DNA from: a virus
Length of the DNA stretch: 64,000 nt
Virus genome (UHGV): UHGV-1351333
Reading direction: 5' to 3' (one strand)
Shown here: piece by piece, positions 1-23,733 of the stretch
How the letters are laid out: the number at the start of each line of letters is the position of its first letter
Numbering within the stretch: position 1 is the first letter of the stretch
Made by a program: the position numbers and the translations under genes
Notes under the pieces: generated by a model
What the model saw: the letters and a program-made list of their open reading frames with translations, nothing else
The model's database searches: none
Told to the model about the DNA's origin: nothing

Positions 1-1739
1 AGATAACCAGCGTGCCGGCCACAATCCGGGACAAAATCAACCGCATCATCCAGCGGGAATATGATAAAGGGTCCTCGGTGTTCGATACGATTGCCGCCGT
101 GCGCCGTCAGACCCCGTCACTGGCCGCCGGCCGCATAGCCACGATTGTCCGCACCGAACTTGGGCGGGCCGCGGATATTGCCAATATCCAGGCGGCCATG
201 GAAGGGACCTGCACGCACATGTCGGTTATCGGGTGCGAAACCATTGAACGCACCTACACCTACCGGGGTTTGCCGACGTGCAACATCCAAAATGTGCCAA
301 TCAACGAATGCATGAACGTCCGGTTCCATCCGAACCATACCGGCTGCTGGGTTCCGTCGGCGTTCAGGCAGTCGGACGGCTCGGTTCCGGAGCTGGACCC
401 CCGCAGCAATTCCGGCCACGGCACTTTTGAAACGCAGCAGGAAAACCCGGAAGGAAACAGCGCCCCGTTCCTGAATCCAAGACCGGCTCCCGGCCCGGAA
501 ATGGAAAACCCGGTAACGCTCGCTCCTACGCCGGAACCGCCTCCGGCTCCTATAGATATTCTTCCCCAGGGTTCATCATCGCCGGTACTGCCGACCACCC
601 CGGAAAACTGCGGGGCGCCGGTCGTAGGAAGGCCGCTTCCGTCAGGAAGGCCGCCGAAAAATGTAATTGATTTTGACGCGCTTCCGGCATCCTACCAGGA
701 CACGGAAGAAGTGCGCCATGCCGTTGAGGTGATTCGCAGCCGCGCCAGTTCGGTAACAAGATTCGTTGCGGACGATAAGGACATTTATGACTTTTTCCGG
801 ACGGTCGGAGTTCTTCCGGACGCTATGGAATCCCTTTTGCTCCAGGACATCCCCCTTAATCTGGCGGATTCGATGGAACTGGTTATTCGCGCCGGACGCA
901 CTTTTGACTGCATCGGCAGCGTAGGCGGAAAACAGTCATTTTTGTATCGGCGCACGATATGCGTAGATGAACAAGGCCGTCTGTACATCCACCACAACGA
1001 TTTTGAAATATGGGCGGAGTACCAGGGGAACGGGTACGCGAGAAAACTGCTGCAAAACCAGATTAACTTTTACGATGCTATCGAGGCCAATTACATCACG
1101 ATGGCGGCCAACATTGACGTAGGCGCTTACGCCTGGGCCAGATACGGATTTTATCTGACTGACGACGGCGCGGAGGCATTGACAAGGCAGCTGCGGCGGG
1201 GCTGGAACCGGATAATCACTAAAGATTTGGCTCCGGCCAATCCGACGGACAAGGAAGCGTTTGACGCGTCAATAGCCCGCTTGGAGCGGATTGTTGAAAA
1301 AAACCCGATGGAACCCAAAGACCTTTGGGCTATCGCGTCCGAACACATCAAAGTACGCACCCCGGGGGGCCAGGAACGGAAGCTGGGGTATCATGTGCTG
1401 TCCGGAACCTACTACAACGCCCGGCTGGACTTGAACGACCCGGAACAGTACGCGCGGCTGGTATCGTACATCAACCACAATCCCACAATTAACAAAGGGC
1501 GGGAATTGTATTCCGTCGTTGACGGACGCCGCCGGGACGCGCTGCTGCACGCGGAGTTTCTTTCCAGCGTATGGGGAAACTTCCGGGCAGACTTCGCCGG
1601 GGTGGAACAGGCCATACGTTCCGGCTGCCCGGAAGACGAGGCGCTGTGGCTTTACGCGTCTCCGGAATCCGTGGCGCTTATGGCCCCGCAGTTGCCGCAA
1701 GAACTGTACACCCGTTATTTGTCATTGCTTAACCGATGA
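1..1739 (+). CDS. Head morphogenesis protein, MuF-like domain (5' partial; ORF open to window start), with C-terminal GNAT-like acetyltransferase-like domain
   Basis: Reading frame open from position 3 with no upstream stop. N-terminal visible part has RTELGRA...C..C...FHPNHTGCWVP, resembling the Cys/His-rich C-terminal motif of the Mu F / SPP1 gp7 family (recalled consensus P.HPnCRC..P). A Pro-rich linker PAPGPE...PTPEPPPAP follows. The later segment YQGNGYARKLL...ANIDVGAYAWARYGF fits GNAT motif A (Q-x-x-G-x-A) and motif B. Confidence 0.5.
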   Translation, partial: ITSVPATIRDKINRIIQREYDKGSSVFDTIAAVRRQTPSLAAGRIATIVRTELGRAADIANIQAAMEGTCTHMSVIGCETIERTYTYRGLPTCNIQNVPINECMNVRFHPNHTGCWVPSAFRQSDGSVPELDPRSNSGHGTFETQQENPEGNSAPFLNPRPAPGPEMENPVTLAPTPEPPPAPIDILPQGSSSPVLPTTPENCGAPVVGRPLPSGRPPKNVIDFDALPASYQDTEEVRHAVEVIRSRASSVTRFVADDKDIYDFFRTVGVLPDAMESLLLQDIPLNLADSMELVIRAGRTFDCIGSVGGKQSFLYRRTICVDEQGRLYIHHNDFEIWAEYQGNGYARKLLQNQINFYDAIEANYITMAANIDVGAYAWARYGFYLTDDGAEALTRQLRRGWNRIITKDLAPANPTDKEAFDASIARLERIVEKNPMEPKDLWAIASEHIKVRTPGGQERKLGYHVLSGTYYNARLDLNDPEQYARLVSYINHNPTINKGRELYSVVDGRRRDALLHAEFLSSVWGNFRADFAGVEQAIRSGCPEDEALWLYASPESVALMAPQLPQELYTRYLSLLNR

Positions 1740-2452
1740 ACTTTGTCTGGCTTAACAACCAATTCGGCAACCAGCTATGGCAGATTGCCGTCGCGACGTT
1801 TTTTTTTGGCCGGGGAAACTTCGCCGCAATAACTTCCTATGCCGTGCCGCTGAAAGGAATCGGTTTCCATGCGTTCCTGCATGTGCCCTGCTTCCCGTTC
1901 AACCGGGAGACGAGCGCCTTAGCGCCGCAAACGGTTTACGTCAAAAGAGGAACGCCCCTGCCTCCCGGCACGAACTCTATCATTGACGGGCAGTTGCAGG
2001 ACGTAGCCTGGCTGCGCGGATTGAATATCCAGCAACTATTGACGTTTGACGGCATCGATAACGATTTTCGCATTGTCCATGTCCGGGGCGGCGATTACTT
2101 TACCAGCAAATCGCACAAGCCCTACGTCAAAAACCGAGACTGGTATCTTAAAGCCATTGCCGCTGTTCCTGATATGCGGAAGCATCAGGACAAAATAATC
2201 CTGTGCACGAATGATGGAAAATATGCGAAAAAAATCCTTCCTGAATTTCCTATACTGGACGTGCCGCCCTTGACTGCGTTCCGCCTGATGATGGGTTGCC
2301 GCTCCCTGGTAATATCCGCGTCGTCCTTTAGCTGGTGGGCCGGGTATCTAAATCCGTCAGCGCAGATTGCCGCCCCTTCCCGGTGGTGCGGCGCCGGAGA
2401 GGATTCGGCGAAATATTACGGACATAGCCGCTTGATGTTCATACCTGATTAA
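1736..2452 (+). CDS. Alpha-1,2-fucosyltransferase-like glycosyltransferase (GT11-like)
   Basis: Contains HVRGGDY (GT11 motif HxRRGDY) and SASSFSWWAGYL (GT11 C-terminal motif SSFSWWAAYL). Start ATG overlaps the upstream stop (ATGA). Confidence 0.6.
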   Translation: MNFVWLNNQFGNQLWQIAVATFFFGRGNFAAITSYAVPLKGIGFHAFLHVPCFPFNRETSALAPQTVYVKRGTPLPPGTNSIIDGQLQDVAWLRGLNIQQLLTFDGIDNDFRIVHVRGGDYFTSKSHKPYVKNRDWYLKAIAAVPDMRKHQDKIILCTNDGKYAKKILPEFPILDVPPLTAFRLMMGCRSLVISASSFSWWAGYLNPSAQIAAPSRWCGAGEDSAKYYGHSRLMFIPD

Positions 2453-2469
2453 CCCGGCAGACCGGCAAA

Positions 2470-2486
2470 TTTGCAATCATTGCAAA
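2470..2486. promoter_or_regulatory. 7-3-7 inverted repeat TTTGCAATCATTGCAAA
   Basis: Perfect palindrome in the intergenic region upstream of the 2666 gene. Confidence 0.7.
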
Positions 2487-2665
2487 TTCGTTTGTATAGA
2501 CCGAAAATGATTATATAGACCTTTTCCTTATTTTCGTTTTTCGTCATTTGCCCTATGGTCGGATAGTTCCCTCCCGCGAGGGCCGGGAACCCTGAAAACT
2601 TCCTGTGGTTTTCAGGAGCATCACAATTAAGCAGGACAAAAACCAAATAGAAAGACAGCACAAAA

Positions 2666-3583
2666 ATGTACGGCACCAGCCCTATGTTTACCATGCCCGT
2701 GTCCTCCGTGGATTCCGGGCGCAGCAATGATAACTACGGAAATTGGAACAATCCGTTTGTGTACCTCGTCTGGATGTGGGCGTTCTCCATGTTCGGCGGC
2801 AATGGCCTGTGGGGCAACAGGAACGGAGCGGGAACCGTAGAAACCCAAGCGATTACCGCGTCTCAGGTCGATGACATCAGGGCGCAGGTAGCCGCTATCC
2901 GTCAAGGGATTGAATGCGGCGACGCAAATATCATGCGGGCCGTTGACCAGCTCGCCGATACCGCACGCGCCAACCAGATTAAAATTGACGGAGGCTTTAC
3001 GTCCGTCAACCAGAACCTGTGCTCCGGCTTCGGCTCCGTCAACTCCAACATCTGCGACGCTAAGACGGCCGTTCTTGGCGCCCTCTGCAACATCGAGCAC
3101 AATCTCGCCATGCAGGGATGCCAGTTCGCCAACCAGATGCAGCAGTGCTGCTGCGAACTCAAGACCGCTATCGGCGATGTCGGATGCGGCGTAGAAAAAG
3201 GCCTCCTGAATCAGACGATTCAGCTCAACCAGGGACTGTGCGGCGTCAACCAGAACATTCAGCAGACCGGCGCGCAAATTGCCAATGGCATTTCCAACCT
3301 CGGATTTACCATTCAGCAGCAGTTCTGCAACACGAACAGCCTGATTGAGGCGAACACGAGAGCCGTGCAGGCGGAAGGCGCCATGACCCGCCAGCTGCTG
3401 GTTGACCAGGTGAAGGACGCCGAAATCTCCCGGCTTCGCGGCATCGTCGCTGAAAACAGCCAGCAAAGGCAGACTACGGAACTGTTTGCCGCCCAGCAGG
3501 CCCAGACGGCTACTCTGCTGCCCCTGTTGCAGCAGATTATCAACAACACGACGAAAACCACCAGCCCCGCGACAGCTGCCTAA
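2666..3583 (+). CDS. Hypothetical protein, N-terminal hydrophobic segment, Cys/Gln/Asn-rich
   Basis: 305-aa ORF after an intergenic promoter region. Hydrophobic WMWAFSMFGG segment near the N-terminus and 11 Cys in a Q/N-rich repetitive C-terminal region. No recognisable family. Confidence 0.45.
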   Translation: MYGTSPMFTMPVSSVDSGRSNDNYGNWNNPFVYLVWMWAFSMFGGNGLWGNRNGAGTVETQAITASQVDDIRAQVAAIRQGIECGDANIMRAVDQLADTARANQIKIDGGFTSVNQNLCSGFGSVNSNICDAKTAVLGALCNIEHNLAMQGCQFANQMQQCCCELKTAIGDVGCGVEKGLLNQTIQLNQGLCGVNQNIQQTGAQIANGISNLGFTIQQQFCNTNSLIEANTRAVQAEGAMTRQLLVDQVKDAEISRLRGIVAENSQQRQTTELFAAQQAQTATLLPLLQQIINNTTKTTSPATAA

Positions 3584-3599
3584 TCGTCAATTCAGGCTT

Positions 3600-3628
3600 C
3601 CCGCCTTTTACCGGGCGGGGGCCTTTTT
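3600..3628 (+). terminator. Intrinsic terminator
   Basis: CCCGCC-loop-GGCGGG followed by GCCTTTTTG, after the 2666-3583 gene. Confidence 0.55.
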
Positions 3629-3684
3629 GAATCCTGGGGCGGCAACGCCCCGAAACACCAATCCAGAAAGGAGAATTGACGATA

Positions 3685-4326
3685 ATGTTCGGAAATATGA
3701 TGCCCGGAATGCCGGGCGCAAATCCCGCCGCAGGAGGCATGGGCATGCCTCCCATGTTTCCAGGCATGCCGGGTATGGGTTCCGCCATGCCGACCCAAGC
3801 GGAGGTGCAGGCTCAAATTGAGCAGCATATCCAGGAGGCGATGGTCCGAATGCTCGAAGAACCGACCGCGGAAGTAGAAGCCGCCATATTGAAGGCGTGC
3901 AAAAAGCTGCTCCGCAAACACGGCTTCCTGGAATCGGACGCGATACGCAATAAGCACCGACGCGAGGAATCGGACAAGGAGGAACATGCCCATGACCCGT
4001 TTTCCGCGAACAGCGAAGAGACGGAAGACGAGGACCGCTGCCATGCCTGGGGCGAAAACCCCATGGGGCGGTTGTTCCTGCTCGTCGATGAATTGCAGGA
4101 ACTGGCCTACAAGGGCCACGGGCCGCAGGTCATCGAAAAACGCTTCCGGGAAGCATGCTCGGACGAAGTATGCGATGAAGAACTTAAAGTCATGGGCCGT
4201 CTGGTCCTGGCTGACGGGTTCCGAAAGCATGCGTCGGCCCTCGGAATGACCAAAGAAGCCTTCAAAAAGCATCTTGCGTCCATTGCCGACAAAATCAAAC
4301 GCAACGACACGGACGACGAAGACTGA
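3685..4326 (+). CDS. Hypothetical protein with Met/Pro/Gly-rich N-terminus
   Basis: ATG preceded by AAAGGAG about 12 nt upstream, one of few clear SD sequences in the window. Low-complexity MPGMPG repeats, acidic C-terminus. Confidence 0.5.
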   Translation: MFGNMMPGMPGANPAAGGMGMPPMFPGMPGMGSAMPTQAEVQAQIEQHIQEAMVRMLEEPTAEVEAAILKACKKLLRKHGFLESDAIRNKHRREESDKEEHAHDPFSANSEETEDEDRCHAWGENPMGRLFLLVDELQELAYKGHGPQVIEKRFREACSDEVCDEELKVMGRLVLADGFRKHASALGMTKEAFKKHLASIADKIKRNDTDDED

Positions 4327-4399
4327 CGGCTTTTTATATTGGTTATTGCGAGGTTGCGGGCTTGATTGGCTGAACGCCGTCAGGCCCGCAATTTTATTG
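4323..4399 (+). terminator. Structured terminator region
   Basis: Nested stems CTGACGGC/GCCGTCAG and GCGGGC/GCCCGC followed by AATTTTATT. Confidence 0.4.
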
Positions 4400-4430
4400 A
4401 CTTGACCCCACTTTGTGCTATCCCGGAATT

Positions 4431-4883
4431 ATGACTGGTATCACTATTTGCAATACAACCGCCATTGCCGCACTATGCGGCTCTCTGGCTATGTGCGTTT
4501 CGTCCTGCTCTCAAGTATGGGACGCTACGGCCCAGCGGCAGGCGAAAGAAGCCGCCATTTCCATTACCGTATCATCCAGGGTGCGCAATGACCCGAACCC
4601 CCCGCAGCGTGAAATCGCATATAAAACCGTAGCGGCGGTATTGAGCGAATACATTGATTCCGGGAATACCGATTCCGCTACGCTGAAATCCGGCATTTAT
4701 TCTGCGCTGGATAAAGTGTTTTCCGCTAAACTGGCCGATAAAATCACCGGAGAAATCATGGATATGATTACCGACCTGGCCGGTTCCGCTACAGACCAGG
4801 ACAAACTGCTCGCCGCGGAAAAGCTGGTGCTGGACAGCATCAAAGCGGGGCTTGACATGTCTGAAACGGTCGTAGTACAGTAA
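4431..4883 (+). CDS. Putative lipoprotein
   Basis: N-terminus MTGITICNTTAIAALCGSLAMCVSSC has a signal-peptide-like h-region and an LAMC lipobox-like motif. Confidence 0.45.
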   Translation: MTGITICNTTAIAALCGSLAMCVSSCSQVWDATAQRQAKEAAISITVSSRVRNDPNPPQREIAYKTVAAVLSEYIDSGNTDSATLKSGIYSALDKVFSAKLADKITGEIMDMITDLAGSATDQDKLLAAEKLVLDSIKAGLDMSETVVVQ

Positions 4884-4943
4884 AGGCCGTCCTGATAACC
4901 ACACAGGATTAAAAGCCCAGTTGGATCATGAGAGAGATGGCAG

Positions 4944-17376: not shown

Positions 17377-19827
17377 ATGGCATTACGGCGCGTACAGAGA
17401 GGCGAACCTCTGCGTATCGGTCAGATTAACCAATACGCCGAACTTCTTGGCCAAATGACCGGCGGGGGAAAACTCTTCCGGGCCAACAGGACCGGCTACC
17501 AGATGGACCGGGACCTGAACCCCCTGTTCCCGTTCGAGCTGATGGCCCTGGACGCGCAGTCGAGTACCGGAGGAAGCGCAAAAGGCGTGCCGTTGGCGGA
17601 ATCTAAAGACCTGGTCGCTTTTCTTCACCCCGGTTCCGTCACGTTTATCGGTCTGGACGGCATGGCCTCACAGGTGTTTCCCGTCATTAAAAACCCGAAA
17701 TACGCTCCTACGGATTCTCCCGGCGGAGGCAATGAAGATGGGGCCGCGGTCAACACCTGGCCCCGCCCCGGCATCCAGATTGAGCTTGATACGGTGTACG
17801 GCGTTCACCTGTTCGCCAAGCTGGAACGGGTGACGATGCAGATAGGCCGTGACCGGATAATTCAAGTGTCGGTCAAGAAATGGTGCCGTGACCGGACTCC
17901 ATTCATCGGCACGGAAGACGAAATGGACAGTTCCGCTTCGGATGACGAAGATATTATCCGGACGTTCATTCCGTTGTTCCGCCCCACGGAAGACAGCGCA
18001 ATCGAAGGAAACGTTTATGTGGAAAATCTGCATGAAAGCGATTTGATTCTGCCGGATATTCCGCTTGAAGGCGGATCGTCTTCATCTTCGGCGTCCTCTT
18101 CCTCGTCTTCCAGCAGTTCAAGTTCAAGCGGTGGAGTATCGTTCAGCAGCTCTTCATCAAAATCGGAAAGCTCGGAATCCGCGTCTTTTTCTTCCTCGTC
18201 TTCATCGTCAAGAGGCCCGTATATTGACCCGACGCTGATTTCCGTACCGGCGCGGGAAACCGATTCCGGATTCGGCGGCATCTACCGCACGCTGAAAGGC
18301 TTTAACTTCCCGCCCAGCGATGATAAGCCGGGCATGGCGTATATCATCATTTACAGTCCGGTCGAGGCCTGTGATTGGGTAAACTTTTCCACCGCCGGAT
18401 TGGCGGAAACGAAAACGGACCAGCAATGGGAAGGCTATGTCGCCATTGACGATAACGGAAATTGGGATTGCAATGTCATCATCGACGAATTCACAGACCC
18501 TGAAAATACGGGCGCTCACCGATTCAAGGATTTCAAAGTAGGCTACCGGGCAAAAAAACAAAATACGGCTGTCGATATTCTCATTGTTGACCAGTCGCCC
18601 CCGGAAATGTCCTCTTCCTCGTCCTCGTCGGCAGAAAGTTCGTCGTCGGAAGAAAAATATTATTTCCGCTTTGTTCCGAATAACATCACTGTAGACAGCC
18701 GGTGGCAGAAAGTTCAGGGCTATATCCGCACCGATTCCCCCTATGGGTGGAAAATCCCGGAAGATTTTGCAGCGCAGTTTCCTTCCGGAAAATGGGTATC
18801 TATCTCCCCGCTGACCGGGAAGGACCACGACAATTTTGAAGTCACGTTCCAGACGAACGAAGAAGGCGCCTCCCGCGATAATCTGGTGACAGGCTACGCG
18901 CTGACGTCGCGCGGCACGTTGATGCTGACGGCGACCGACACATTAAATGTCACCCAAACCTCGGAAGCTTCTTCTTCCTCATCGAGCAGTTCAAGCAGCT
19001 CGTCAAGTTCAAGTTCTTCTTCGTCTTCCGGTTCGTCGAGTTCATCCCAGGCGGATTGGTTTGAGGTGTTTCCCACGTCGATGGCTTTCGGCGCAGACGG
19101 CAAACCGAAAGATTCCAACAAGGTAAGGTTGCGCGGAACGGTCGAATGGTCAGCTGACACGCAAAGCGCCTGGTGTTCCATGTCTCCCACGTCAGGACCG
19201 GCGCCGGGGGATGCCGGGACGGAAGCCATAATCACCTGCCAGCCTAATGAGGGAGTAAATGGCCGGAGCACGCTCGTCGAGTTTACCGTTAGTTTGAACG
19301 GATCGCCGCAATATTACTATGTCAACGTTATCCAGGAGGGCAACCCTCCCGTGCCTTCATCGGGAAGCGAGTCCTCTTCCTCGGAAGCTTCTTCCGGGGC
19401 CAGCTCGGCCTCGTCAAGCAAGACCGCTATTTTGCCGGTCCGGGGAAAGTTCCTGGGCGTGATGTGCATGGAGTCCCCGGAAACATGGTTTGTGGACTTC
19501 GCCACCGTTCATTTTCCGCTTGGATTGGCGTTAATCGACCGGACGTTCATCGACGTCACCGAACCCGGTTCCATAGCGGTTGTTTCCGCTGTAGATGATA
19601 GGGGCCGCCCCGCGCGGGCATGGCTCCGGCAGGAAGGAAAGTACCTTACCCTGTACGCGAAGCCGCAGGGGTTAAGCCGCGTATTCCGGCCGCAGTCTGT
19701 TATTGTCCAGCTCATCGGCAAGCGTCTGGGCCACCGCGCGCGGTTTCCGGAATTTACGAAAGACCAGTTTATCGCCAATGAAGCGTTTTACGCTAAAGCC
19801 CACCAGCCGGAACCTCCGGAAAAGTAG
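17377..19827 (+). CDS. Tail fibre / receptor-binding protein with two BACON-like domains and four poly-Ser linkers
   Basis: 816 aa. Four Ser-rich linkers. WVSISPLTGKDHDNFEVTFQ...LNVTQ and WCSMSPTSGPAPGDAGTEAIITCQPNEGVNGRSTLVEFTVSLNG...YYVNVIQ match the BACON domain pattern W.S.SP.SG...TV......R.A.IT.. Confidence 0.65.
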   Translation: MALRRVQRGEPLRIGQINQYAELLGQMTGGGKLFRANRTGYQMDRDLNPLFPFELMALDAQSSTGGSAKGVPLAESKDLVAFLHPGSVTFIGLDGMASQVFPVIKNPKYAPTDSPGGGNEDGAAVNTWPRPGIQIELDTVYGVHLFAKLERVTMQIGRDRIIQVSVKKWCRDRTPFIGTEDEMDSSASDDEDIIRTFIPLFRPTEDSAIEGNVYVENLHESDLILPDIPLEGGSSSSSASSSSSSSSSSSSGGVSFSSSSSKSESSESASFSSSSSSSRGPYIDPTLISVPARETDSGFGGIYRTLKGFNFPPSDDKPGMAYIIIYSPVEACDWVNFSTAGLAETKTDQQWEGYVAIDDNGNWDCNVIIDEFTDPENTGAHRFKDFKVGYRAKKQNTAVDILIVDQSPPEMSSSSSSSAESSSSEEKYYFRFVPNNITVDSRWQKVQGYIRTDSPYGWKIPEDFAAQFPSGKWVSISPLTGKDHDNFEVTFQTNEEGASRDNLVTGYALTSRGTLMLTATDTLNVTQTSEASSSSSSSSSSSSSSSSSSSSGSSSSSQADWFEVFPTSMAFGADGKPKDSNKVRLRGTVEWSADTQSAWCSMSPTSGPAPGDAGTEAIITCQPNEGVNGRSTLVEFTVSLNGSPQYYYVNVIQEGNPPVPSSGSESSSSEASSGASSASSSKTAILPVRGKFLGVMCMESPETWFVDFATVHFPLGLALIDRTFIDVTEPGSIAVVSAVDDRGRPARAWLRQEGKYLTLYAKPQGLSRVFRPQSVIVQLIGKRLGHRARFPEFTKDQFIANEAFYAKAHQPEPPEK

Positions 19828-19836
19828 AAAAGTAAA

Positions 19837-20205
19837 TCAGGCCCATATTACGTTTCCGGATTCATCAATATCTACGGCTTTTTTGTGCGCCAGCCGAGCT
19901 TCATTTAATTTCCGGGAGTCCCGGATAACGTCGCCGGTTTCCGGGTATTCCTTGAATACGTTAATATAATTCAATAAACGTTCCTTGTCGGAATATACCA
20001 CGGCCGCATTTACAACATAGAACTTCCCTTTATCATCGTACCGACGGATAACGCTCGTATCCGTGGCGCAACGCCATGTGTCAAAGTCGCGGGTAATATA
20101 AACGCGCTCATGCGCTCTAAGCCATATCATTGTTTCCCTGGCGATAAACTCCGGAACAAGAGTAAAGAGCTGCTCTTTTGTTAAAGTAGTATTGCTTATA
20201 ATCAT
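19837..20205 (-). CDS. Hypothetical protein
   Basis: 122-aa minus-strand ORF driven by an inverted copy of the conserved promoter-leader element. Confidence 0.45.
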   Translation of the reverse strand: MIISNTTLTKEQLFTLVPEFIARETMIWLRAHERVYITRDFDTWRCATDTSVIRRYDDKGKFYVVNAAVVYSDKERLLNYINVFKEYPETGDVIRDSRKLNEARLAHKKAVDIDESGNVIWA

Positions 20206-20330
20206 ATTGACCCGTGGGGTTTCTTAATGAGAAGGTTTTTCCCTCCCTTTGATGAGAACAATTTAACACTATATTTTAAAAATTGCAAGAGAAAAAAGCA
20301 TAAAAATGATTTTTTATTACATCAAATCAA
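20206..20330 (-). promoter_or_regulatory. Inverted copy of promoter-leader element lacking the palindrome
   Basis: The reverse complement contains ...TCTTGCAATTTTTAAAATATAGTGTTAAATTGTTCTCATCAAAGGGAGGGAAAAACCTTCTC upstream of the 19837-20205 minus gene. Confidence 0.55.
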
Positions 20331-20510
20331 TCGGCAGCAAATAATACGCGCATTTAATCAGCACGATGCCCGCCAGCCAGTTAAGAACCGCCATAACCGG
20401 CATTCGGTGCTTGATGCAGGAAAAAGTGCAAAGCATCATTTGAGCGCCAAGAATCGTTATGGCCCCGGAAATTAAAAATTGCAAAAACATCGATTGGCGG
20501 TCAGCGCGTG

Positions 20511-20843
20511 CTAACGTCTTGAAACTTTTATCGCGGAAGGCTCGTATCGGTACACTATTTCCTCGAAACGCTTTTCAGCATCCGCCAGGGTAGTAAGCGT
20601 CCAGCCATAAGTTCCCCAGGAATTGGGGCCCGGAAGATACTCGTCGCCAATCTGGTGGAACTTCGTAGGGGACGTGACCGTTTGAACCCGCATAACTTCA
20701 TAGCTGATTTGTCCGTGTTTTTCCTGCTCATATATAACCACATTTCCCTGCCTTCGGATTAAACGATAATTAAACCCGTATTTCCGGAACTCGGATTTAA
20801 TTTTTCTTGATGGCGAAGTTATCGGCTTATCTTCCATGCTCAT
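20511..20843 (-). CDS. Hypothetical protein
   Basis: 110-aa minus-strand ORF in a three-gene minus operon. Confidence 0.4.
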   Translation of the reverse strand: MSMEDKPITSPSRKIKSEFRKYGFNYRLIRRQGNVVIYEQEKHGQISYEVMRVQTVTSPTKFHQIGDEYLPGPNSWGTYGWTLTTLADAEKRFEEIVYRYEPSAIKVSRR

Positions 20844-20871
20844 ATTATTTTTTTATTAAAAAAATTGTAGT

Positions 20872-21093
20872 TTAACTCCTAAACTTGCGCCTCACCCGGC
20901 GCATTTTCAGCTCCGAAGAAACAGAAGGAGTATTTGACGCTTTTCGCAGTTCCAGCAACTGGTCCACAGTGCGCTGTAGAGCAATTATGCCTTTCTCCAA
21001 TTCCACTTTATTTATCCGGTAATTATCCGCAATCCAGTCTATATTTCTGGACAGGTTGTGCCGGTGTGCGTCTATGTCCTGCCGCGGCTCCAT
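20872..21093 (-). CDS. Hypothetical protein
   Basis: 73-aa minus-strand ORF. Confidence 0.35.
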   Translation of the reverse strand: MEPRQDIDAHRHNLSRNIDWIADNYRINKVELEKGIIALQRTVDQLLELRKASNTPSVSSELKMRRVRRKFRS

Positions 21094-21114
21094 ACATTTA
21101 TTATTAACTTTTAT

Positions 21115-21143
21115 CCTCAGGGGGGGTAATTCCCCCCCCCTCC
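21115..21143. other. G7-TAATT-C9 homopolymer hairpin
   Basis: GGGGGGGTAATTCCCCCCCCC between two minus-strand genes. Confidence 0.5.
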
Positions 21144-21156
21144 CTGGAAGCAGGAA

Positions 21157-21432
21157 TTAACGCAGATTAAAGATGAACTCGTAGCCGCTGGAATACCGGT
21201 CAATATCTACGGATTCCACATCCATGCAGGTCATATCCCGCACAAGCTGTTTCAAATGGCGCAGGGCTTTTCCGCAGCGGGAATCGTCTTCAATATCCTT
21301 GGGGTCCAGTTTTACCATTATTGAAGTTTGAGAGATAAGAGAAGCGCTGCGTACTTCGCTGCTGCAAAAATACTTTTGAAAGTATTTATTGATTTCTGAA
21401 ACTCCGTTTTGCAGTGTGGTTTTAGTATTCAT
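21157..21432 (-). CDS. Hypothetical protein
   Basis: 91-aa minus-strand ORF immediately downstream of the inverted full promoter-leader element. Confidence 0.45.
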   Translation of the reverse strand: MNTKTTLQNGVSEINKYFQKYFCSSEVRSASLISQTSIMVKLDPKDIEDDSRCGKALRHLKQLVRDMTCMDVESVDIDRYSSGYEFIFNLR

Positions 21433-21567
21433 TTTTTTCTAACAGGTTTTTTGTTTTTTTTCTCTCAGGAGCTTTCCTCCCTTTGATGAATGTAATTTAA
21501 CACTATATCTTAAGAATTGCAAGAGAAAAAAGAGTTTTTCACGAAAAAAATTTGCAATCGTTGCAAA
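21433..21567 (-). promoter_or_regulatory. Conserved promoter-leader element, inverted (full copy) driving minus-strand operon
   Basis: The reverse complement of 21465-21567 reads TTTGCAACGATTGCAAA...CTCTTGCAATTCTTAAGATATAGTGTTAAATTACATTCATCAAAGGGAGGAAAGCTCC. Confidence 0.65.
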
Positions 21568-21620
21568 TTCCGAAAATCAATATTGCTCCTAAAAAATCAA
21601 GCAATTATATTGGCAAAGAC

Positions 21621-22673
21621 ATGATAACCTTAAACCATCTTGGAATATCCCACGCGGTCATCATTGCCTTGCCGGAACGCGCTGAACACGTCGCCCGCCT
21701 GAAAAACTCCATGGCCTCCGGGGGCATTGACCCGGAAAACAGCGTTACCCTGCTTCCCGCCTGGAACGGTCGAGAGCTGTTTCCTCCGAAAAGCTGGAAA
21801 GGGACCCGCGGCGCCTGGGGCTGTGTGCAGTCCCATATCCGGGCCTTGCGGCTTGCGGTTAAAAATAATTGGGAGTCAGTGCTCATCCTAGAGGATGACG
21901 CCCTGTTTTGCCGCAACGCCGCCGCCAGATTGCAGACGCTTTTTTCCGCGCTGCCGAAAGACTGGCGCCTGCTCTATCTCGGAGGGCATCACCAAAACTG
22001 GCCGAAGGAGGTCCACGCGGATTATATCCTGGCCTCCGGCATGACGGCCACTCATGCTTATATCGTCAAACGGGAATCTATCCCGTGGCTTATTAAGCAC
22101 ATCGCCTATTATCCCGACTACGAACAGCAGCAATGGGGAGTTGACCAGCAAATCCGGAACGCCGTTTACCGGGGCGACATCCTCCAATACGCCCCGCGCT
22201 GGAATATCGTAGGACAGCAGCGGCAGGAATACAGCACCATTGCCCATTCCAGGGCCGGGAACCGGGAGCGCTGGTGGGAGCATTCTCAAAATGACCAGTT
22301 CCGCCTGCTTCCGCTTCTGCTGCTGCGGGAGCCGCTAACCGTGGAGGACGTTGACGGGCTTGAGGAACTGGTGGACGTCGCCCCCGAAAAAAGCGTCGAA
22401 TGCCTTTTGGAGAAAACAGAAGATATGGCCGGCGCCATCATTGAGGCGCTTTCCTGCAGCGCGCGGGGGGCATTCAGCCATCGGCGCGTCCCTGCCCTGT
22501 ACTATACTGACCGTAAAGCCGCGGACAGGTGCGCCCGCCTATGGTCCGCGGAATGCCTGTTTGCTGATGTTGACGATTCCGAACAAACCAGGAAATCGCT
22601 TATTGCCGCCCTGCGCCGCATTGTCGACTATGCGGAAAATCCGGACATGAACCCGGACGTGAACAATGATTAA
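21621..22673 (+). CDS. Glycosyltransferase family 25-like (LPS glycosyltransferase-like)
   Basis: AVIIALPERAEHVARL...WKGTRGAWGCVQSHIRALRL...VLILEDDALF...WRLLYLGG matches the GT25 pattern VINL.R..dR......WkG..GalGC.lSH......LILEDD...dw.i.yLg. First ATG in ORF 21552-22673. Confidence 0.6.
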   Translation: MITLNHLGISHAVIIALPERAEHVARLKNSMASGGIDPENSVTLLPAWNGRELFPPKSWKGTRGAWGCVQSHIRALRLAVKNNWESVLILEDDALFCRNAAARLQTLFSALPKDWRLLYLGGHHQNWPKEVHADYILASGMTATHAYIVKRESIPWLIKHIAYYPDYEQQQWGVDQQIRNAVYRGDILQYAPRWNIVGQQRQEYSTIAHSRAGNRERWWEHSQNDQFRLLPLLLLREPLTVEDVDGLEELVDVAPEKSVECLLEKTEDMAGAIIEALSCSARGAFSHRRVPALYYTDRKAADRCARLWSAECLFADVDDSEQTRKSLIAALRRIVDYAENPDMNPDVNND

Positions 22674-23733
22674 CTTTCTTCGCTACACTGCTATGGATTA
22701 TTTATTTCCGCATTATTTCGACCGGATTGTCGTCATCAACCTTACTAAAAACCCCGAACGGTTTGCCCGCATTGCCGATGAATTGAAGTATAAATGCCTG
22801 GCGGGGCCTGATGATATTGTCAGGCATGAAGCCGTGCACGGGGATTCCATGCCGCATCCGGCGTGGTACAGGGCCGGAAACGGGGCGTGGGGGTGCTTGT
22901 CCAGCCATATCGAGGCGCTGGAAGACGCCTGGAACACCGGAAGCGAGCACACGCTGATTATCGAGGACGATGCCGTATTCGCCAATGACCTTTTGACGCG
23001 GTTCCCGGAAACCATGAAGGAAGTTCCGAAAGAATACGGGCAGTTGTACCTTGGGGGACAGCACCAGCAGGCCCCGGAGGCCCTCAGCGATACTTTGTGG
23101 CGCGGCACGTCTGTCAATCGGACGCATTGCTACGCCGTTACCCGGAAGTTCATTCCGGAGATTCTCGCCCATATCATGGATTGGGATACCCATATCAAGG
23201 CTGCCGGAAACCCGCTCCACATCGACCACACGCTGGAAATCGGGCATCAGCGCAGATACTGGCCCGTATTTTGCCCCCGGTTCTGGTTTGCCGGTCAGGG
23301 GGAAAACCAATCTGACATCAACGGCAGGCCCCAGCGGGAAATGTGGTGGGAGTACTCCGTGAAACAACAGCATTTAGAGCTTCCTTTGCTTGTGTTACGG
23401 ACCGCCGACATGCCGGAACACGTTAAAGACCTGGCGTTTGTCGGCTGGCCGTCGGATTTGGACGCCCGCGGCGTCAACAGGAAAATCGAAGAGGCTAAAA
23501 AAGACAAGGCTACCCTGTTGCGGGAAATCAGCTGGCTGGCGTATGTAGGATTCCAGCACCACAGCCTTCCGGCGGTTTATCTTCCGGAGCCGGAACCGGT
23601 TTCCGCATTGCAGCGCCTGTGGTCCGGTGAGGTTATCGACACGGCGCATGCGGATGATGCGGATATCCACCGGATGCGCCGCATCCTGGAATTCGCCGAT
23701 AATCCGGAAATGCTGAAATATAGATTCCGGTAG
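22666..23733 (+). CDS. Glycosyltransferase family 25-like, tandem paralogue
   Basis: RIVVINLTKNPERFARI...AWYRAGNGAWGCLSSHIEALE...LIIEDDAVF...GQLYLGG. Same domain order and similar C-terminal tail (ADNPEML vs AENPDMN) as the upstream gene. Confidence 0.6.
   Translation: MINFLRYTAMDYLFPHYFDRIVVINLTKNPERFARIADELKYKCLAGPDDIVRHEAVHGDSMPHPAWYRAGNGAWGCLSSHIEALEDAWNTGSEHTLIIEDDAVFANDLLTRFPETMKEVPKEYGQLYLGGQHQQAPEALSDTLWRGTSVNRTHCYAVTRKFIPEILAHIMDWDTHIKAAGNPLHIDHTLEIGHQRRYWPVFCPRFWFAGQGENQSDINGRPQREMWWEYSVKQQHLELPLLVLRTADMPEHVKDLAFVGWPSDLDARGVNRKIEEAKKDKATLLREISWLAYVGFQHHSLPAVYLPEPEPVSALQRLWSGEVIDTAHADDADIHRMRRILEFADNPEMLKYRFR

What the first reader, a model, noticed from the sequence alone, without database searches (positions are those of the whole stretch)
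1736..23733. Phage-encoded glycosylation toolkit: GT11 fucosyltransferase-like gene plus two tandem GT25 paralogues
1736-2452 carries both GT11 signature motifs (HVRGGDY and SSFSWWAGYL). 21621-22673 and 22666-23733 are tandem GT25-like genes with similar C-terminal extensions. Together with the cytidylyltransferase at 62485-63219, that makes four sugar-handling genes in one virus. Targets could be host surface glycans (seroconversion or superinfection exclusion) or the phage's own proteins.
Basis: partly seen in the sequence, partly recalled or inferred. Interest (0 to 1): 0.7.

Follow-up and report, generated by a model that had tools for sequence, protein, structure and literature searches.

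The report
Phage sugar enzymes beside poly-serine tail protein
The four sugar-handling genes are real, but they belong to separate modules, and the most interesting one is the pair of GT25-type glycosyltransferases, which in this phage and in well over a hundred related viral and bacterial contigs lies just downstream of a serine-rich tail protein that it probably glycosylates.

Summary
ORF 1736-2452 is a GT11-like GT-B enzyme with every family motif. ORFs 21621-22673 and 22666-23733 are tandem GT25-like GT-A paralogues. ORF 62485-63219 is a divergent CTP_transf_3 cytidylyltransferase, shown only through intermediate sequences.

The "one toolkit" reading is only partly right.

1. The GT25 subfamily is tightly linked to Ser-rich tail proteins. 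In 80 viral loci, S/T-rich tracts reach 5.7 per 10 kb in the kilobase upstream of the GT gene, against 0.03 per 10 kb in a control set. Searching with the tail protein's C-terminal domain alone gave a GT25-like gene downstream in 24 of 24 testable loci. In this window the only S-rich ORF is the 816-aa BACON tail protein 17377-19827. The closest solved folds to GT25 #2 are collagen O-galactosyltransferases, which act on proteins. Best explanation: O-glycosylation of the poly-Ser linkers of the tail protein. This is inferred, not shown.

2. GT11-like and GT25-like genes lie next to each other in 35 of 80 other viral loci. GT11 therefore probably extends the same glycan.

3. The cytidylyltransferase sits in a DNA-modification island (ParB, CmoX-like, CmoA-like). 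In a sister phage it is flanked by two ParB-TAGT DNA-glycosyltransferase pairs.

The host is probably a Verrucomicrobium, perhaps Akkermansia. Verdict: new variant of a known kind.

The parts
1736..2452 (+). GT11-like GT-B glycosyltransferase (238 aa). It lies in the head module, directly after the head-morphogenesis gene (12-1739), with a 4-nt overlap.
   Evidence: PF01531 44.7 bits, cut-off 23.9. All GT11 motifs are conserved in alignment A1. The AF2 model has pLDDT 79 and pTM 0.81. Its best PDB folds are WaaC (E 1e-4), NodZ alpha-1,6-fucosyltransferase (E 1.2e-4) and FUT8. The same position is conserved in sister phage L001. The protein cluster has 500 members.
17377..19827 (+). 816-aa tail protein downstream of the tape measure protein. 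It has BACON domains, four poly-Ser linkers (nt 18070-18210, 18610-18648, 18967-19047, 19372-19419) and a conserved ~130-aa C-terminal domain (nt 19423-19824). It is the proposed acceptor substrate.
   Evidence: BACON and BACON_2 are just above cut-off. It is the only ORF in the 64-kb window with at least 13 of 20 S/T. Poly-Ser runs use all six Ser codons. The C-terminal domain recurs upstream of GT25-like genes in 33 viral and 7 genome loci.
19837..21432 (-). Four small minus-strand ORFs (122, 110, 73 and 91 aa) in a lower-GC stretch. They are an insertion that separates the tail protein from the GT25 pair in this phage.
   Evidence: ORFs. GC is 0.45 for 20001-22000 against about 0.53 elsewhere. 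In close relative L010 only about 470 nt, with one small ORF, separate the poly-Ser protein from GT25 #1.
21621..22673 (+). GT25-like paralogue #1 (350 aa from the ATG; an upstream TTG at 21552 is also possible). It is a divergent copy with a C-terminal extension.
   Evidence: PF01755 36.3 bits. It keeps all 16 family-invariant residues, including EDD and GAWGC..SH, but differs at 12 of 35 near-invariant positions.
22666..23733 (+). GT25-like paralogue #2 (355 aa), the canonical member of the phage subfamily. It has a GT-A catalytic domain (roughly residues 15-230) and a C-terminal extension of about 120 aa.
   Evidence: PF01755 29.7 bits. It matches 34 of 35 near-invariant residues. The AF2 model has pLDDT 90.2. 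Best PDB folds are human COLGALT1/GLT25D1 (E 7e-11), Mimivirus R655 (E 2.5e-10) and a chain deposited as beta-1,4-galactosyltransferase (E 8e-7).
23735..24379 (+). Spanin-like lysis protein with an N-terminal lipobox (IIAGC) and a C-terminal hydrophobic segment. It starts 2 nt after the GT25 #2 stop. This places the GT25 pair in the late/lysis transcription unit.
   Evidence: The sequence is read directly. A terminator-like hairpin lies at 24432-24453, but the total number of such sites is at chance level. The lysozyme-like endolysin 25413-26105 follows.
59317..61594 (+). DNA-modification island, first part: ParB-like (59317-59856), CmoX-like C5 cytosine transferase (59877-60941; GSPPCC and GRMVPP motifs) and CmoA-like carboxy-SAM synthase (60938-61594). 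The CmoX-like and CmoA-like genes overlap by 4 nt.
   Evidence: ParB_N E 5e-7 and DNA_methylase E 1.7e-50. TIGR00740 CmoA E 6.5e-13, below its cut-off. The ParBc-CmoX-CmoA arrangement and the SPPC motif are described in PMC12783734.
62485..63824 (+). CTP_transf_3-like cytidylyltransferase (62485-63219; a TTG start at 62437 is possible) plus a conserved partner ORF of 199 aa (63225-63824, no family hit). This pair is the conserved core of the DNA-modification island.
   Evidence: Transitive homology: 39 of 42 remote relatives carry PF02348. In sister phage L170 the same pair is flanked by ParB_N + TAGT (PF20691, E 3e-27 and 5e-32) on both sides.

Best explanation
The window is about 64 kb of an 85-89 kb siphophage with a T5-like capsid. 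The phage is common in metagenomes and probably infects a Gram-negative PVC bacterium.

Its sugar genes fall into separate modules.

(A) The two soluble, late-expressed GT25-like GT-A enzymes O-glycosylate the poly-serine linkers of the 816-aa BACON-domain tail protein in the cytoplasm, before or during tail assembly. Paralogue #2 is the conserved 'core' enzyme. Paralogue #1 is a diverged duplicate that adds a second sugar or uses another acceptor.

(B) The GT11-like GT-B enzyme then adds a residue to the hexose laid down by a GT25 enzyme. By family precedent this would be an alpha-1,2-linked 6-deoxyhexose such as fucose, from a GDP-sugar. The result would be a mucin-like, protease-resistant, stiffened stalk between the domains of the tail protein.

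(C) The cytidylyltransferase is not part of this pathway. It belongs to a DNA-modification island (ParB, CmoX-like, CmoA-like, CT-like, orf199).

Shown: the family and fold assignments, the genomic linkage statistics and the island architecture.
Inferred: the acceptor (poly-Ser), the donor sugars, the order of action, and the physical consequence for the tail protein.
For: 1. Linkage of GT25 to Ser-rich tracts. In 80 viral loci carrying this GT25 subfamily (GC 38-72%, 24 clusters at 60% GT identity), same-strand S/T-rich tracts number 44, 27 and 13 in the first, second and third kb upstream. They are close to zero elsewhere within +-10 kb and zero in the first kb downstream. At a looser threshold most of the remaining clusters also have S/G-, S/D- or S/E-rich linkers directly upstream.

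2. Control. 1,014 kb around 80 GT11-like viral genes holds only 3 such tracts, 0.03 per 10 kb.

3. The same pile-up occurs in 80 bacterial-genome loci, with 43 tracts in the second kb upstream.

4. Reverse test. I searched viral contigs with only the conserved C-terminal domain of the tail protein. All 24 loci that had at least 2 kb of downstream sequence carry a GT25-like gene 0.2-2 kb downstream. Two of them carry a tandem pair, as this window does.

5. In this window the only S-rich ORF in 64 kb is the tail protein 1.8 kb upstream. In relative L010 the gap is about 470 nt.

6. Poly-Ser runs use all six Ser codons with almost no homocodon runs. The tracts are therefore kept at the protein level and are not slippage products.

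7. The model of GT25 #2 is most similar to the protein O-glycosyltransferase COLGALT1 and to Mimivirus R655, a putative collagen glycosyltransferase (PMC9546862). It is not most similar to the JGT/TarP-like DNA glycosyltransferases described in bioRxiv 10.1101/2023.12.21.572611.

8. The EDD motif and 15 other residues are invariant in all 49 aligned members, which argues for a working enzyme.

9. Genes just downstream of GT25-like genes in other phages are often further glycan-tailoring enzymes: GT32-like in 6, GT8 in 2, methyltransferases in at least 6, and a sulfotransferase in 1 of 83 ORFs.

10. GT11 and GT25 pairing. 35 of 80 GT11 viral loci carry a GT25-like domain, with a median gap of 390 nt and one fusion ORF. 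The figure is 1 of 120 in an unrelated set of viral loci.

11. No transmembrane-type N-terminal segment is visible by eye in any of the three GTs (no predictor was run). They would therefore meet cytoplasmic substrates such as unassembled tail proteins.

12. Phage-encoded virion glycosylation has precedent in mycobacteriophages (Freeman et al. 2023, as cited in PMC11256854 and PMC12619734).

13. For (C).
Against: - No glycan, glycopeptide or enzyme activity has been observed. The acceptor is inferred from gene order alone.
- Much of the linkage is inherited synteny within one deep lineage of tail modules, because the C-terminal domain is shared. The 24 GT clusters are therefore not 24 independent events.
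- A GT that modifies the host receptor recognised by the same tail protein would also be inherited together with that protein.
- Poly-Ser proteins exist in viral contigs with no GT25-like gene nearby (but that test was confounded).
- A few GT25 clusters show no Ser-rich neighbour: the L024 group, L076/L082, L085 and L086.
- Chromosomal Verrucomicrobial members of the subfamily sit in non-phage contexts without poly-Ser.
- GT11-linked GT25 genes in other viruses have no poly-Ser nearby. The GT11-GT25 pair can therefore act on something else.
- GT11 lies 19 kb from the GT25 pair, in the head module.
- Characterised bacterial GT25 and GT11 enzymes act on LPS/LOS (established knowledge).
Confidence: 0.5

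Rival explanations
1. Host-surface remodelling. The GT25 pair and GT11 act on the host's LPS/LOS core or capsule at the inner face of the membrane during infection, for example as a beta-Gal then alpha-1,2-Fuc addition like LgtB/Lic2A plus FutC. This would alter or mask the receptor recognised by the adjacent tail protein. It would give superinfection exclusion, or stop progeny from being trapped on cell debris. The GT genes travel with the tail protein because receptor-binding protein and receptor modifier co-evolve.
For: Characterised bacterial GT25 and GT11 enzymes are LOS/LPS enzymes (established knowledge; the Pfam name of PF01755 is 'LPS biosynthesis protein'). The region between tail-fibre and lysis genes is a classic accessory-gene position. 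Cellular members of the subfamily exist in Verrucomicrobial chromosomes. GT11-GT25 pairs in other viruses lack Ser-rich neighbours. The host looks Gram-negative, from the spanin-like gene.
Against: It does not explain why the upstream partner is specifically Ser-rich across GC 38-72%, nor the 24 of 24 co-occurrence with one tail-protein domain. Genes co-transcribed with lysis genes come late for exclusion. The phage looks virulent: it has its own DNA polymerase A, DnaB and RecA, and no integrase was found in 64 kb. No Gtr-type membrane components were found. The nearest solved folds are protein-modifying GT25 enzymes.
Confidence: 0.2
2. All four genes form one pathway: the cytidylyltransferase makes a CMP-sugar that is added to the same glycan built by GT25 and GT11.
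For: All four are sugar-handling genes in one genome. Some remote relatives of the CT-like protein are fused to GT10, GT29 or GT31 domains. The 199-aa partner ORF has no assigned function and could be a transferase.
Against: The CT-like gene is about 39 kb from the GT25 pair. Its conserved neighbours are DNA-modification genes: ParB and CmoX/CmoA here, and ParB + TAGT on both sides in the sister phage. Phage DNA-hypermodification clusters containing a cytidylyltransferase have been shown experimentally (bioRxiv 10.1101/2023.12.21.572611). The CT HMM hits only 1 of 160 GT25 loci.
Confidence: 0.08
3. DNA glycosylation. GT25 and/or GT11 glycosylate modified bases in phage DNA, as T4 alpha/beta-GT or TAGT enzymes do.
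For: Phages use both GT-A and GT-B enzymes on DNA. The genome carries a base-modification island. GT11 has a GT-B fold, as T4 beta-GT does.
Against: No TET/5mYOX or thymidylate-synthase-like 'handle' enzyme was found among the window ORFs scanned. The GT25 and GT11 genes lie in the tail and head modules, not in the modification island. The GT25 fold matches COLGALT1, not JGT/TarP. The poly-Ser linkage would be unexplained. About 24 kb of the genome was not seen.
Confidence: 0.04
4. Non-catalytic role. The GT25-like proteins are assembly chaperones or structural partners of the tail protein that only keep a GT fold, as the vaccinia H3 envelope protein does.
For: Vaccinia H3 and a 'putative envelope protein' of a marine phage appear among the fold matches. 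Gene order resembles that of a tail fibre and its chaperone. Paralogue #1 has lost 12 of 35 near-invariant residues.
Against: The EDD metal/nucleotide-sugar motif and 15 other positions are invariant in all 49 sequences, including both paralogues. Further GTs and methyltransferases often follow the gene in other phages.
Confidence: 0.05

Closest known systems
Mycobacteriophage virion glycosylation (Che8 and other cluster F1 phages; Freeman et al. 2023, Cell Host Microbe, read only through citing papers PMC11256854 and PMC12619734)
   Same: Phage-encoded cytoplasmic glycosyltransferases decorate the phage's own structural proteins. Other enzymes such as methyltransferases can be clustered with the GTs. 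The proposed benefit is shielding of the virion surface.
   Different: There the glycans are on the C-termini of capsid and tail-tube subunits, the hosts are Actinobacteria, and the GT genes lie near the right genome end. Here the proposed acceptor is the homopolymeric Ser linkers of a tail protein encoded immediately upstream. The enzymes are GT25-like and GT11-like, the hosts are apparently PVC bacteria, and nothing has been shown biochemically. I could not read the primary paper, so the GT families used there were not compared.
Collagen hydroxylysine galactosyltransferase COLGALT1/GLT25D1 (GT25) and the Mimivirus collagen-modifying set (L230, R655, R699)
   Same: These are the best structural matches to GT25 #2 (E 7e-11 and 2.5e-10). 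They are GT25-type GT-A enzymes that O-glycosylate a repetitive structural protein. The Mimivirus case is a virus modifying its own fibre-type proteins (PMC9546862).
   Different: Their acceptor is hydroxylysine in Gly-X-Y repeats. No lysyl hydroxylase or collagen repeat occurs here. Sequence identity is about 17%. The C-terminal extension here has no structural match. R655's activity has itself not been demonstrated.
Serine-rich repeat glycoproteins (SRRPs) of Gram-positive bacteria (PMC6973325)
   Same: Long Ser-rich, disordered stalks are heavily O-glycosylated in the cytoplasm by dedicated GTs encoded next to the substrate gene. They serve as extended adhesin stalks.
   Different: SRRPs use GtfA/GtfB (GT4) with GT8, GT2 or GT-D extenders and an accessory Sec export system. 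Their repeats are S-x dipeptides rather than pure poly-Ser. None of those components was found here. This is a functional analogy, not family membership.
Bacterial LOS/LPS enzymes LgtB/Lic2A/LpsA (GT25) and FutC/WbsJ-type alpha-1,2-fucosyltransferases (GT11)
   Same: The Pfam families are the same. The family precedent of a beta-hexose added by GT25 and then capped by an alpha-1,2-fucose from GT11 gives the proposed order of action (established knowledge of the CAZy families).
   Different: Those enzymes act on lipid-linked oligosaccharides. The phage proteins score only just above the GT25 threshold (30-36 bits). GT25 #2 carries an extra domain of about 120 aa. GT11 has HVRGGDY rather than HxRRGDY and is short (238 aa). 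The genomic partner is a Ser-rich protein, not an LPS cluster.
Phage DNA-hypermodification clusters: ParBc-CmoX-CmoA (5-carboxymethylcytosine, PMC12783734) and MT/5mYOX + TAGT-type GT + cytidylyltransferase clusters (bioRxiv 10.1101/2023.12.21.572611; ParB partners in PMC13229309)
   Same: This is the setting of the cytidylyltransferase-like gene. The ParB, C5-transferase with SPPC motif, and CmoA-like order is as published. In the sister phage the CT-like gene and orf199 are flanked by ParB + TAGT pairs.
   Different: No CmoY-type amide ligase and no TET/5mYOX enzyme was detected in the window. The role of a CMP-sugar synthetase next to CmoX/CmoA is not described in the paper (terms absent). 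The GT25 and GT11 genes are not part of this island.
Temperate-phage seroconversion systems (GtrABC, O-antigen acetylases)
   Same: Phage-encoded sugar-modifying genes located near tail genes that change what the tail protein sees.
   Different: Those are membrane-embedded, bactoprenol-linked systems of temperate phages. In the GTs here no transmembrane-type N-terminal segment is visible by eye, they are not of the Gtr families, the genes sit in a late/lysis operon, and the phage shows no lysogeny genes in 64 kb.

Membership tests
GT11 / Pfam PF01531 (alpha-1,2-fucosyltransferase family) | Profile HMM score above the curated gathering threshold | tested here: met
   44.7 bits against 23.9, E 1.4e-11. 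Only the C-terminal half of the profile (163-269 of 298) is matched.
GT11 / Pfam PF01531 | Signature motifs: N-terminal G-x-G-N-Q, HxR(R)GDY, T-D-D, and S-x-FSWW | tested here: met
   QFGNQLWQ (aa 9-16), HVRGGDY (115-121; the second R of the canonical motif is G, as in all 28 aligned homologues), CTND (157-160) and SSFSWWAGYL (196-205).
GT11 / Pfam PF01531 | GT-B fold of the fucosyltransferase superfamily | tested here: met
   The AF2 model has pLDDT 79 and pTM 0.81. The N-terminal domain is weaker, with residues 35-68 below 50. Foldseek against the PDB gives WaaC 1e-4, NodZ 1.2e-4 and FUT8 6e-3, with TM about 0.5. No solved GT11 chain appeared among the hits.
GT11 / Pfam PF01531 | Transfers L-fucose from GDP-fucose in alpha-1,2 linkage to a terminal beta-galactoside | not testable with these tools
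   Needs an enzyme assay. Donor and acceptor are inferred from family precedent only.
GT25 / Pfam PF01755 | Profile HMM score above the curated gathering threshold | tested here: met
   36.3 bits (#1) and 29.7 bits (#2) against 24. Nearly all of the 96 homologues found carry precomputed PF01755.
GT25 / Pfam PF01755 | GT-A fold closest to solved GT25 structures, with a DXD-type motif | tested here: met
   The model of #2 has pLDDT 90.2. Top PDB hits are COLGALT1 (7e-11) and a chain deposited as beta-1,4-galactosyltransferase (8e-7). EDD is invariant in all 49 sequences. #1 was not modelled.
GT25 / Pfam PF01755 | Inverting beta-hexosyl transfer from a UDP-sugar to LOS, or to hydroxylysine | not testable with these tools
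The acceptor proposed (Ser hydroxyl in poly-Ser) is not a known GT25 acceptor.
CTP_transf_3 / Pfam PF02348 (CMP-Kdo / CMP-NeuAc synthetase family) | Direct profile HMM match | tested here: not met
   No Pfam hit at E <= 1. TIGR03584 PseF E 0.14, 11.8 bits against a cut-off of 205.7. PDB profile search: NeuA, E 0.39.
CTP_transf_3 / Pfam PF02348 | Homology through intermediate sequences, and conserved N-terminal IPAR/K..S.R.P.KN and QPTSP motifs | tested here: met
   The profile of the phage family found 43 remote relatives, best E 3.4e-14. Of 42 scanned, 39 carry PF02348, best E 1.7e-18. The motifs align. This makes it a divergent member by transitive homology. Its substrate is unknown.
Mycobacteriophage-type virion glycosylation | Phage-encoded GTs and glycans detected on virion proteins | not testable with these tools
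   GT genes are present. Glycans cannot be observed in silico. The primary paper is not held.
Serine-rich repeat glycoprotein (SRRP) systems | GtfA/GtfB priming pair and accessory Sec export next to an S-x repeat protein | tested here: not met
   No such families appeared among the Pfam hits of the window ORFs scanned. The tracts are homopolymeric Ser. This is an analogy only.
Gtr-type seroconversion | Membrane proteins GtrA/GtrB/Gtr(type) in a temperate phage | tested here: not met
   No Gtr or integrase family hits among the ORFs scanned. No transmembrane-type N-terminal segment is visible by eye in the three GTs (no predictor was run). Only 64 of about 88 kb was examined.
TAGT-type DNA glycosyltransferases (PF20691) | TAGT profile match, next to ParB, MT or 5mYOX genes | tested here: not met
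   The GT25 and GT11 proteins do not hit TAGT. TAGT is found only in sister phage L170, E 3e-27 and 5e-32. The window ends 176 nt after orf199, so a downstream TAGT cannot be excluded.
ParBc-CmoX-CmoA 5-carboxymethylcytosine system (PMC12783734); applies to 59317-61594, not to the GTs | C5-MTase fold with SPPC motif and a carboxylate-binding Arg, an adjacent CmoA homologue, and often a ParBc neighbour | tested here: inconclusive
   PF00145 E 1.7e-50 and ParB_N. 'GSPPCC' and 'GRMVPP' are read from the sequence. CmoA TIGR00740 E 6.5e-13 is below its cut-off. The equivalence of the Arg to the published R350 was not checked by alignment. No CmoY-like ligase was found.

The most novel reading that the evidence does not exclude
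A gut phage, probably of the mucin-degrading Akkermansia or another mucus-associated PVC bacterium, builds mucin mimics on itself. GT25 enzymes put beta-hexoses on the poly-Ser linkers of its BACON-domain tail protein. GT11 caps them with alpha-1,2-fucose, giving an H-antigen-like epitope. The PAPS-synthesis genes seen in a sister phage might add sulfate. This would give a bottle-brush stalk that resists gut proteases, positions the glycan-binding BACON domains, and makes the virion look like host mucin to the immune system and to mucus. More generally, 'poly-Ser tail protein + GT25-like enzyme' would be a widespread and so far undescribed virion O-glycosylation system of phages of Verrucomicrobiota and Planctomycetota, with a new acceptor type for family GT25.
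Probability: 0.15. Interest if true: 0.85.

Novelty: new variant of a known kind. Interest (0 to 1): 0.62.

Why it matters
Virion glycosylation by phage-encoded enzymes is experimentally established, to my knowledge, only for mycobacteriophages. There it changes antibody recognition.

If the module found here works as proposed, it would:
- extend virion glycosylation to Gram-negative PVC hosts and to an abundant human-gut phage lineage (protein clusters of 360-500 members);
- give a simple sequence rule for finding candidate phage glycoproteins, namely a Ser-rich linker followed by a GT25-like gene;
- add serine as an acceptor for family GT25;
- matter for phage persistence in mucus, immune recognition, and the engineering of glycosylated tail fibres.

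The proposal can be tested directly with three or four cloned genes.

A practical lesson also follows. Sugar genes in one phage should not be pooled into one pathway. Here one of the four belongs to a DNA-modification island whose cassettes (CmoX/CmoA or ParB-TAGT) are swapped between sister phages.

Tried and rejected
1. Sequence search of the PDB with the single GT11 and GT25 proteins gave nothing useful. Structure prediction was needed.

2. Megablast of 24 kb against GenBank phages found no match. tblastn with GT25 #2 found one unannotated 484-kb uncultured phage record.

3. Early misreading, now retracted. I took the GT25 homologue in L002-L004 to lie in a replication module because its neighbours' sizes resembled the window's polymerase and helicase genes. 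The 422-aa neighbour in fact carries the tail C-terminal domain.

4. Reverse test with the DNA pattern (TCN)8 in viral contigs. 53 loci had an 'S8+' ORF and only one had a GT25-like gene. Most of these ORFs are short antisense readings of Asp/Glu tracts, and the real tracts use mixed codons. The test is therefore uninformative. It does show that some long poly-Ser proteins lack a GT25 neighbour.

5. The promoter and terminator scan of 19.7-26.3 kb was at chance level.

6. The diverse C-terminal-domain alignment A10 was too variable for the search for related loci. The narrower A11 worked but samples mainly one marine lineage.

7. No tRNA genes were found, so there is no host clue from that source.

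8. DNA glycosylation by GT25 or GT11 was considered and ranked low (see rivals).

9. Literature searches for phage + polyserine/serine-rich + glycosyltransferase/tail fibre found no description of this module. The library lacks most subscription papers.

10. The function of the GT25 C-terminal extension remains unknown. Fold matches cover only the catalytic domain.

Full report
**What the window is**

The window carries, almost entirely on the + strand:
- a head module: the 3' part of a head-morphogenesis gene, a prohead protease (Peptidase_S78), and a 552-aa major capsid protein about 28% identical to T5-like capsids;
- a 1,056-aa tape measure protein and further tail genes;
- a lysis cassette;
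- a replication module: DnaB, family-A DNA polymerase, RNase H, an SNF2-type helicase and RecA;
- a large terminase.

There is no nucleotide match to GenBank phages. Near-identical proteins form clusters of 360-500 members on contigs of 85-92 kb in many metagenomes. So this is about 64 kb of an 85-89 kb phage that is common but uncultivated.

A spanin-like gene with a lipobox and a C-terminal hydrophobic segment (23735-24379) indicates a Gram-negative host.

**Checking the observation**

ORF 1736-2452 contains HVRGGDY and SSFSWWAGYL exactly as stated. It passes Pfam GT11 at 44.7 bits against a cut-off of 23.9. An alignment with 28 homologues shows the N-terminal GNQ motif and the T(N/D)D motif as well. 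Its AlphaFold model (pLDDT 79) has a GT-B fold, with WaaC, NodZ and FUT8 as the best solved matches.

ORFs 21621-22673 and 22666-23733 both pass Pfam GT25 at 36.3 and 29.7 bits against a cut-off of 24. They overlap by 8 nt. They are paralogues at 29% identity over 338 residues, including the C-terminal extensions (E 5e-41). The model of the second (pLDDT 90.2) has a GT-A fold. Its best solved matches are human COLGALT1/GLT25D1, Mimivirus R655 and a chain deposited as beta-1,4-galactosyltransferase.

ORF 62485-63219 fails direct HMM tests. A profile of its family finds 43 remote relatives in 1.84 billion representatives. Of the 42 scanned, 39 are PF02348 cytidylyltransferases, and the two nucleotide-binding motifs align.

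The fourth gene is supported only by transitive homology.

**The GT25 pair and the poly-serine tail protein**

I looked at where relatives of the GT25 genes occur and saw Ser-rich proteins next to them. I then tested this systematically.

An alignment of the subfamily (A4) recovered 209 viral contigs. The best 80 loci (GC 38-72%) fall into 24 clusters at 60% GT identity.

Same-strand ORFs with at least 14 of 20 S/T residues pile up directly upstream of the GT gene:

| Position relative to GT gene | Tracts | Density per 10 kb |
|---|---|---|
| First kb upstream | 44 | 5.7 |
| Second kb upstream | 27 | 3.8 |
| Third kb upstream | 13 | 1.9 |
| First kb downstream | 0 | 0 |
| Elsewhere within +-10 kb | 0-4 per 1-kb bin | 0.6 or less |

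At a looser threshold most of the 'negative' clusters also show S/G-, S/D- or S/E-rich linkers directly upstream.

As a control, 1,014 kb around 80 GT11-like viral genes holds three such tracts, or 0.03 per 10 kb.

The same pattern appears in 80 bacterial-genome loci, with 43 tracts in the second kb upstream. Those genomes are almost all Verrucomicrobiota (including an Akkermansia MAG) and Planctomycetota.

The tracts are encoded by all six serine codons with hardly any homocodon runs. They are therefore maintained at the protein level.

The Ser-rich proteins are tail-type proteins with variable N-terminal and middle domains: BACON here, and Laminin_G_3, RHS and others elsewhere. Many share a conserved C-terminal domain of about 130 aa that begins right after the last Ser tract, at the junction ..GSDKS|TAIVP...

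I then searched viral contigs with that domain alone. All 24 loci with enough downstream sequence carry a GT25-like gene 0.2-2 kb downstream, and two carry a tandem pair.

In the window itself, the 816-aa BACON protein (17377-19827) is the only S-rich ORF in 64 kb. It has four poly-Ser linkers. It lies 1.8 kb upstream of the GT25 pair, separated from it by four small minus-strand ORFs of lower GC. In the close relative L010 that gap shrinks to about 470 nt containing one small ORF.

The GT25 pair abuts the spanin-like gene and so appears to be expressed late.

**How it most likely works**

No transmembrane-type N-terminal segment is visible by eye in the three GTs, so they would meet tail proteins in the cytoplasm.

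All 49 aligned subfamily members keep the EDD motif and 15 other invariant residues, which argues for catalysis. Paralogue #2 matches 34 of 35 near-invariant positions. Paralogue #1 matches only 23 of 35, as expected of a duplicate with a changed specificity.

The nearest solved folds are enzymes that O-glycosylate a repetitive structural protein, and one of them is viral (PMC9546862).

In other phages the genes that follow the GT25-like gene are often further GTs (GT32-like, GT8), methyltransferases or a sulfotransferase. This suggests a small glycan-building cluster.

I therefore propose that the GT25 enzymes O-glycosylate the poly-Ser linkers, making a mucin-like stalk. This is an inference from gene linkage, fold and precedent. 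No glycan has been seen.

**GT11**

GT11-like genes are common in viral contigs (at least 517).

In 35 of the 80 best loci a GT25-like domain lies nearby. The median gap is 390 nt, 23 are within 1 kb, and one ORF contains both domains. The figure is 1 of 120 in an unrelated set of viral loci.

A Foldseek hit of the GT25 model to a 494-aa Bodo saltans virus protein named alpha-1,2-fucosyltransferase may be another fusion, but I could not verify it.

The two families therefore probably act in one pathway. Family precedent is a beta-hexose from GT25 capped by an alpha-1,2-linked fucose from GT11. Those other loci have no Ser-rich neighbours, so the GT11-GT25 pair is not tied to poly-Ser acceptors in general.

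Here GT11 sits in the head module, and that position is conserved in the sister phage. Its acceptor is the least certain part of the model.

**The cytidylyltransferase belongs elsewhere**

Its neighbours are a ParB-like gene, a C5 cytosine transferase with the SPPC motif, and an overlapping CmoA-like gene.

That is the ParBc-CmoX-CmoA arrangement shown in 2025 to make 5-carboxymethylcytosine in phage DNA (PMC12783734).

In a sister phage the CT-like protein is 80% identical. There the CT-like gene and its 199-aa partner are flanked on both sides by ParB_N plus TAGT (TET-associated glycosyltransferase) genes.

Phage DNA-hypermodification clusters containing a cytidylyltransferase have been reconstituted (bioRxiv 10.1101/2023.12.21.572611). 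ParB-like proteins are known partners of DNA-modifying enzymes (PMC13229309).

No TET or thymidylate-synthase-type enzyme was found in the window, and the window ends 176 nt after the partner ORF. This gene most likely serves DNA modification, not the tail glycan.

**Rivals**

The main rival is remodelling of the host's LPS/LOS or capsule. The GT would be co-inherited with the tail protein because receptor-binding protein and receptor modifier co-evolve.

- For it: what characterised bacterial GT25 and GT11 enzymes do, and the presence of chromosomal members of the subfamily in Verrucomicrobia. There the neighbours are RHS proteins, Ser/Thr kinases, sulfotransferases and other GTs rather than phage genes.
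- Against it: it does not explain the Ser-richness of the partner. The apparent timing is late. The phage shows no lysogeny genes.

A further caveat applies to my own explanation. Much of the linkage is inherited within one deep tail-module lineage, so the counts are not independent events.

**Comparison with what is known, and novelty**

Phage virion glycosylation is known from mycobacteriophages. Ser-rich glycoprotein stalks are known from Gram-positive SRRPs. GT25 enzymes acting on proteins are known from collagen.

What I did not find in the literature available here is a GT25-like enzyme coupled to poly-Ser tail proteins in phages of PVC bacteria.

I rate it a new variant of a known kind. 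It is a member of the GT25 and GT11 families by sequence and fold, with an unproven new acceptor.

**Host**

The evidence for a Verrucomicrobial host, perhaps Akkermansia, is indirect:
- the cellular distribution of the subfamily;
- a GC content of 53%;
- near-identical contigs with IMG identifiers of the 7000000xxx series, which I know as Human Microbiome Project samples (my own knowledge).

BACON domains and the absence of obvious Shine-Dalgarno sequences before the GT genes would also fit a Bacteroidota host.

Noticed in passing
window 59317-61594: ParB-like gene, a C5 cytosine transferase with 'GSPPCC' and 'GRMVPP' motifs, and an overlapping CmoA-like gene, in a low-GC (40%) stretch. This matches the ParBc-CmoX-CmoA system for 5-carboxymethylcytosine in phage DNA published in December 2025 (PMC12783734). 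No CmoY-like amide ligase was seen.
   Followed up: partly
L170 5249-11175 (sister phage), compared with window 59317-64000: Cassette swap in the DNA-modification island. The sister phage has ParB_N-TAGT, orf129, CT-like, orf199, ParB_N-TAGT. The window has ParB, CmoX-like, CmoA-like, orf118, CT-like, orf199. The CT-like/orf199 pair is the constant core, and its role next to either chemistry is unknown.
   Followed up: partly
L001 1-751 (sister phage, region between terminase and portal that lies outside the window): An APS kinase and a GTP_EFTU-domain (CysN-like) gene suggest phage-encoded PAPS synthesis. A Cpn10 co-chaperonin lies nearby (4110-4460). Sulfotransferases also turn up next to GT25-like genes: 1 of 83 downstream ORFs in viral loci and 2 of 62 ORFs in Verrucomicrobial loci. 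Sulfated glycans may be involved.
   Followed up: no
window 19837-21432 (minus strand): Four small ORFs on the opposite strand in a lower-GC segment. The segment is mostly absent from close relative L010. It looks like an accessory-gene insertion between the tail protein and the GT25 pair. No family hits of note.
   Followed up: partly
window 19423-19824, and L010-L169 loci (alignment A10): A conserved domain of about 130 aa ends the Ser-rich tail proteins. It always begins right after the last Ser tract, at a nearly invariant junction (..GSDKS|TAIVP.., ending ..QF.ANE.F..). It has no Pfam family. The junction might be a processing or docking site.
   Followed up: partly
L139, L142, L145, L150, L152, L163, L165, L167 and others (Planctomycetota genome loci): The Ser-rich proteins upstream of GT25-like genes start their tract with a Cys-rich motif, C-R-C-C-(E/D)-G followed by poly-Ser. 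Some have S-rich regions of more than 400 residues. Similar CC(C)-polySer starts occur in the viral loci L081 and L069.
   Followed up: no
L219 5664-9944, and BFVD hit A0A2H4UUT1 (Bodo saltans virus): One viral ORF of about 1,400 aa contains both a GT25-like and a GT11-like domain. A 494-aa giant-virus protein named alpha-1,2-fucosyltransferase matches the GT25 model over 342 columns. These are possible fusions linking the two families.
   Followed up: partly
window 2666-3583: An unusual 305-aa protein just downstream of GT11. It is rich in Gln, Asn and Cys, with repeated 'C..(V/I)N(Q/S)N(L/I)C'-like segments. It has no family hit apart from a marginal poxvirus A6 match. It may be a scaffold or decoration protein.
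   Followed up: no
window 37929-57624: Among 38 unannotated ORFs scanned together, one has an N6 DNA methylase domain (E 1.8e-8) and one a RuvC domain. I did not determine which ORFs they are. The phage therefore carries a second DNA methyltransferase.
   Followed up: no
L092-L131 (Verrucomicrobial chromosomal loci): Cellular members of the GT25 subfamily that lack poly-Ser neighbours lie beside RHS-repeat proteins, Ser/Thr protein kinases, sulfotransferases, an APS kinase, a GT90 and a Gnt1-like GlcNAc transferase. This hints at protein glycosylation or sulfation in the hosts themselves.
   Followed up: no
window 23735-24379: A single gene with both a lipoprotein signal (lipobox IIAGC) and a C-terminal hydrophobic segment, i.e. 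a unimolecular-spanin-like architecture. It starts 2 nt after GT25 #2.
   Followed up: no
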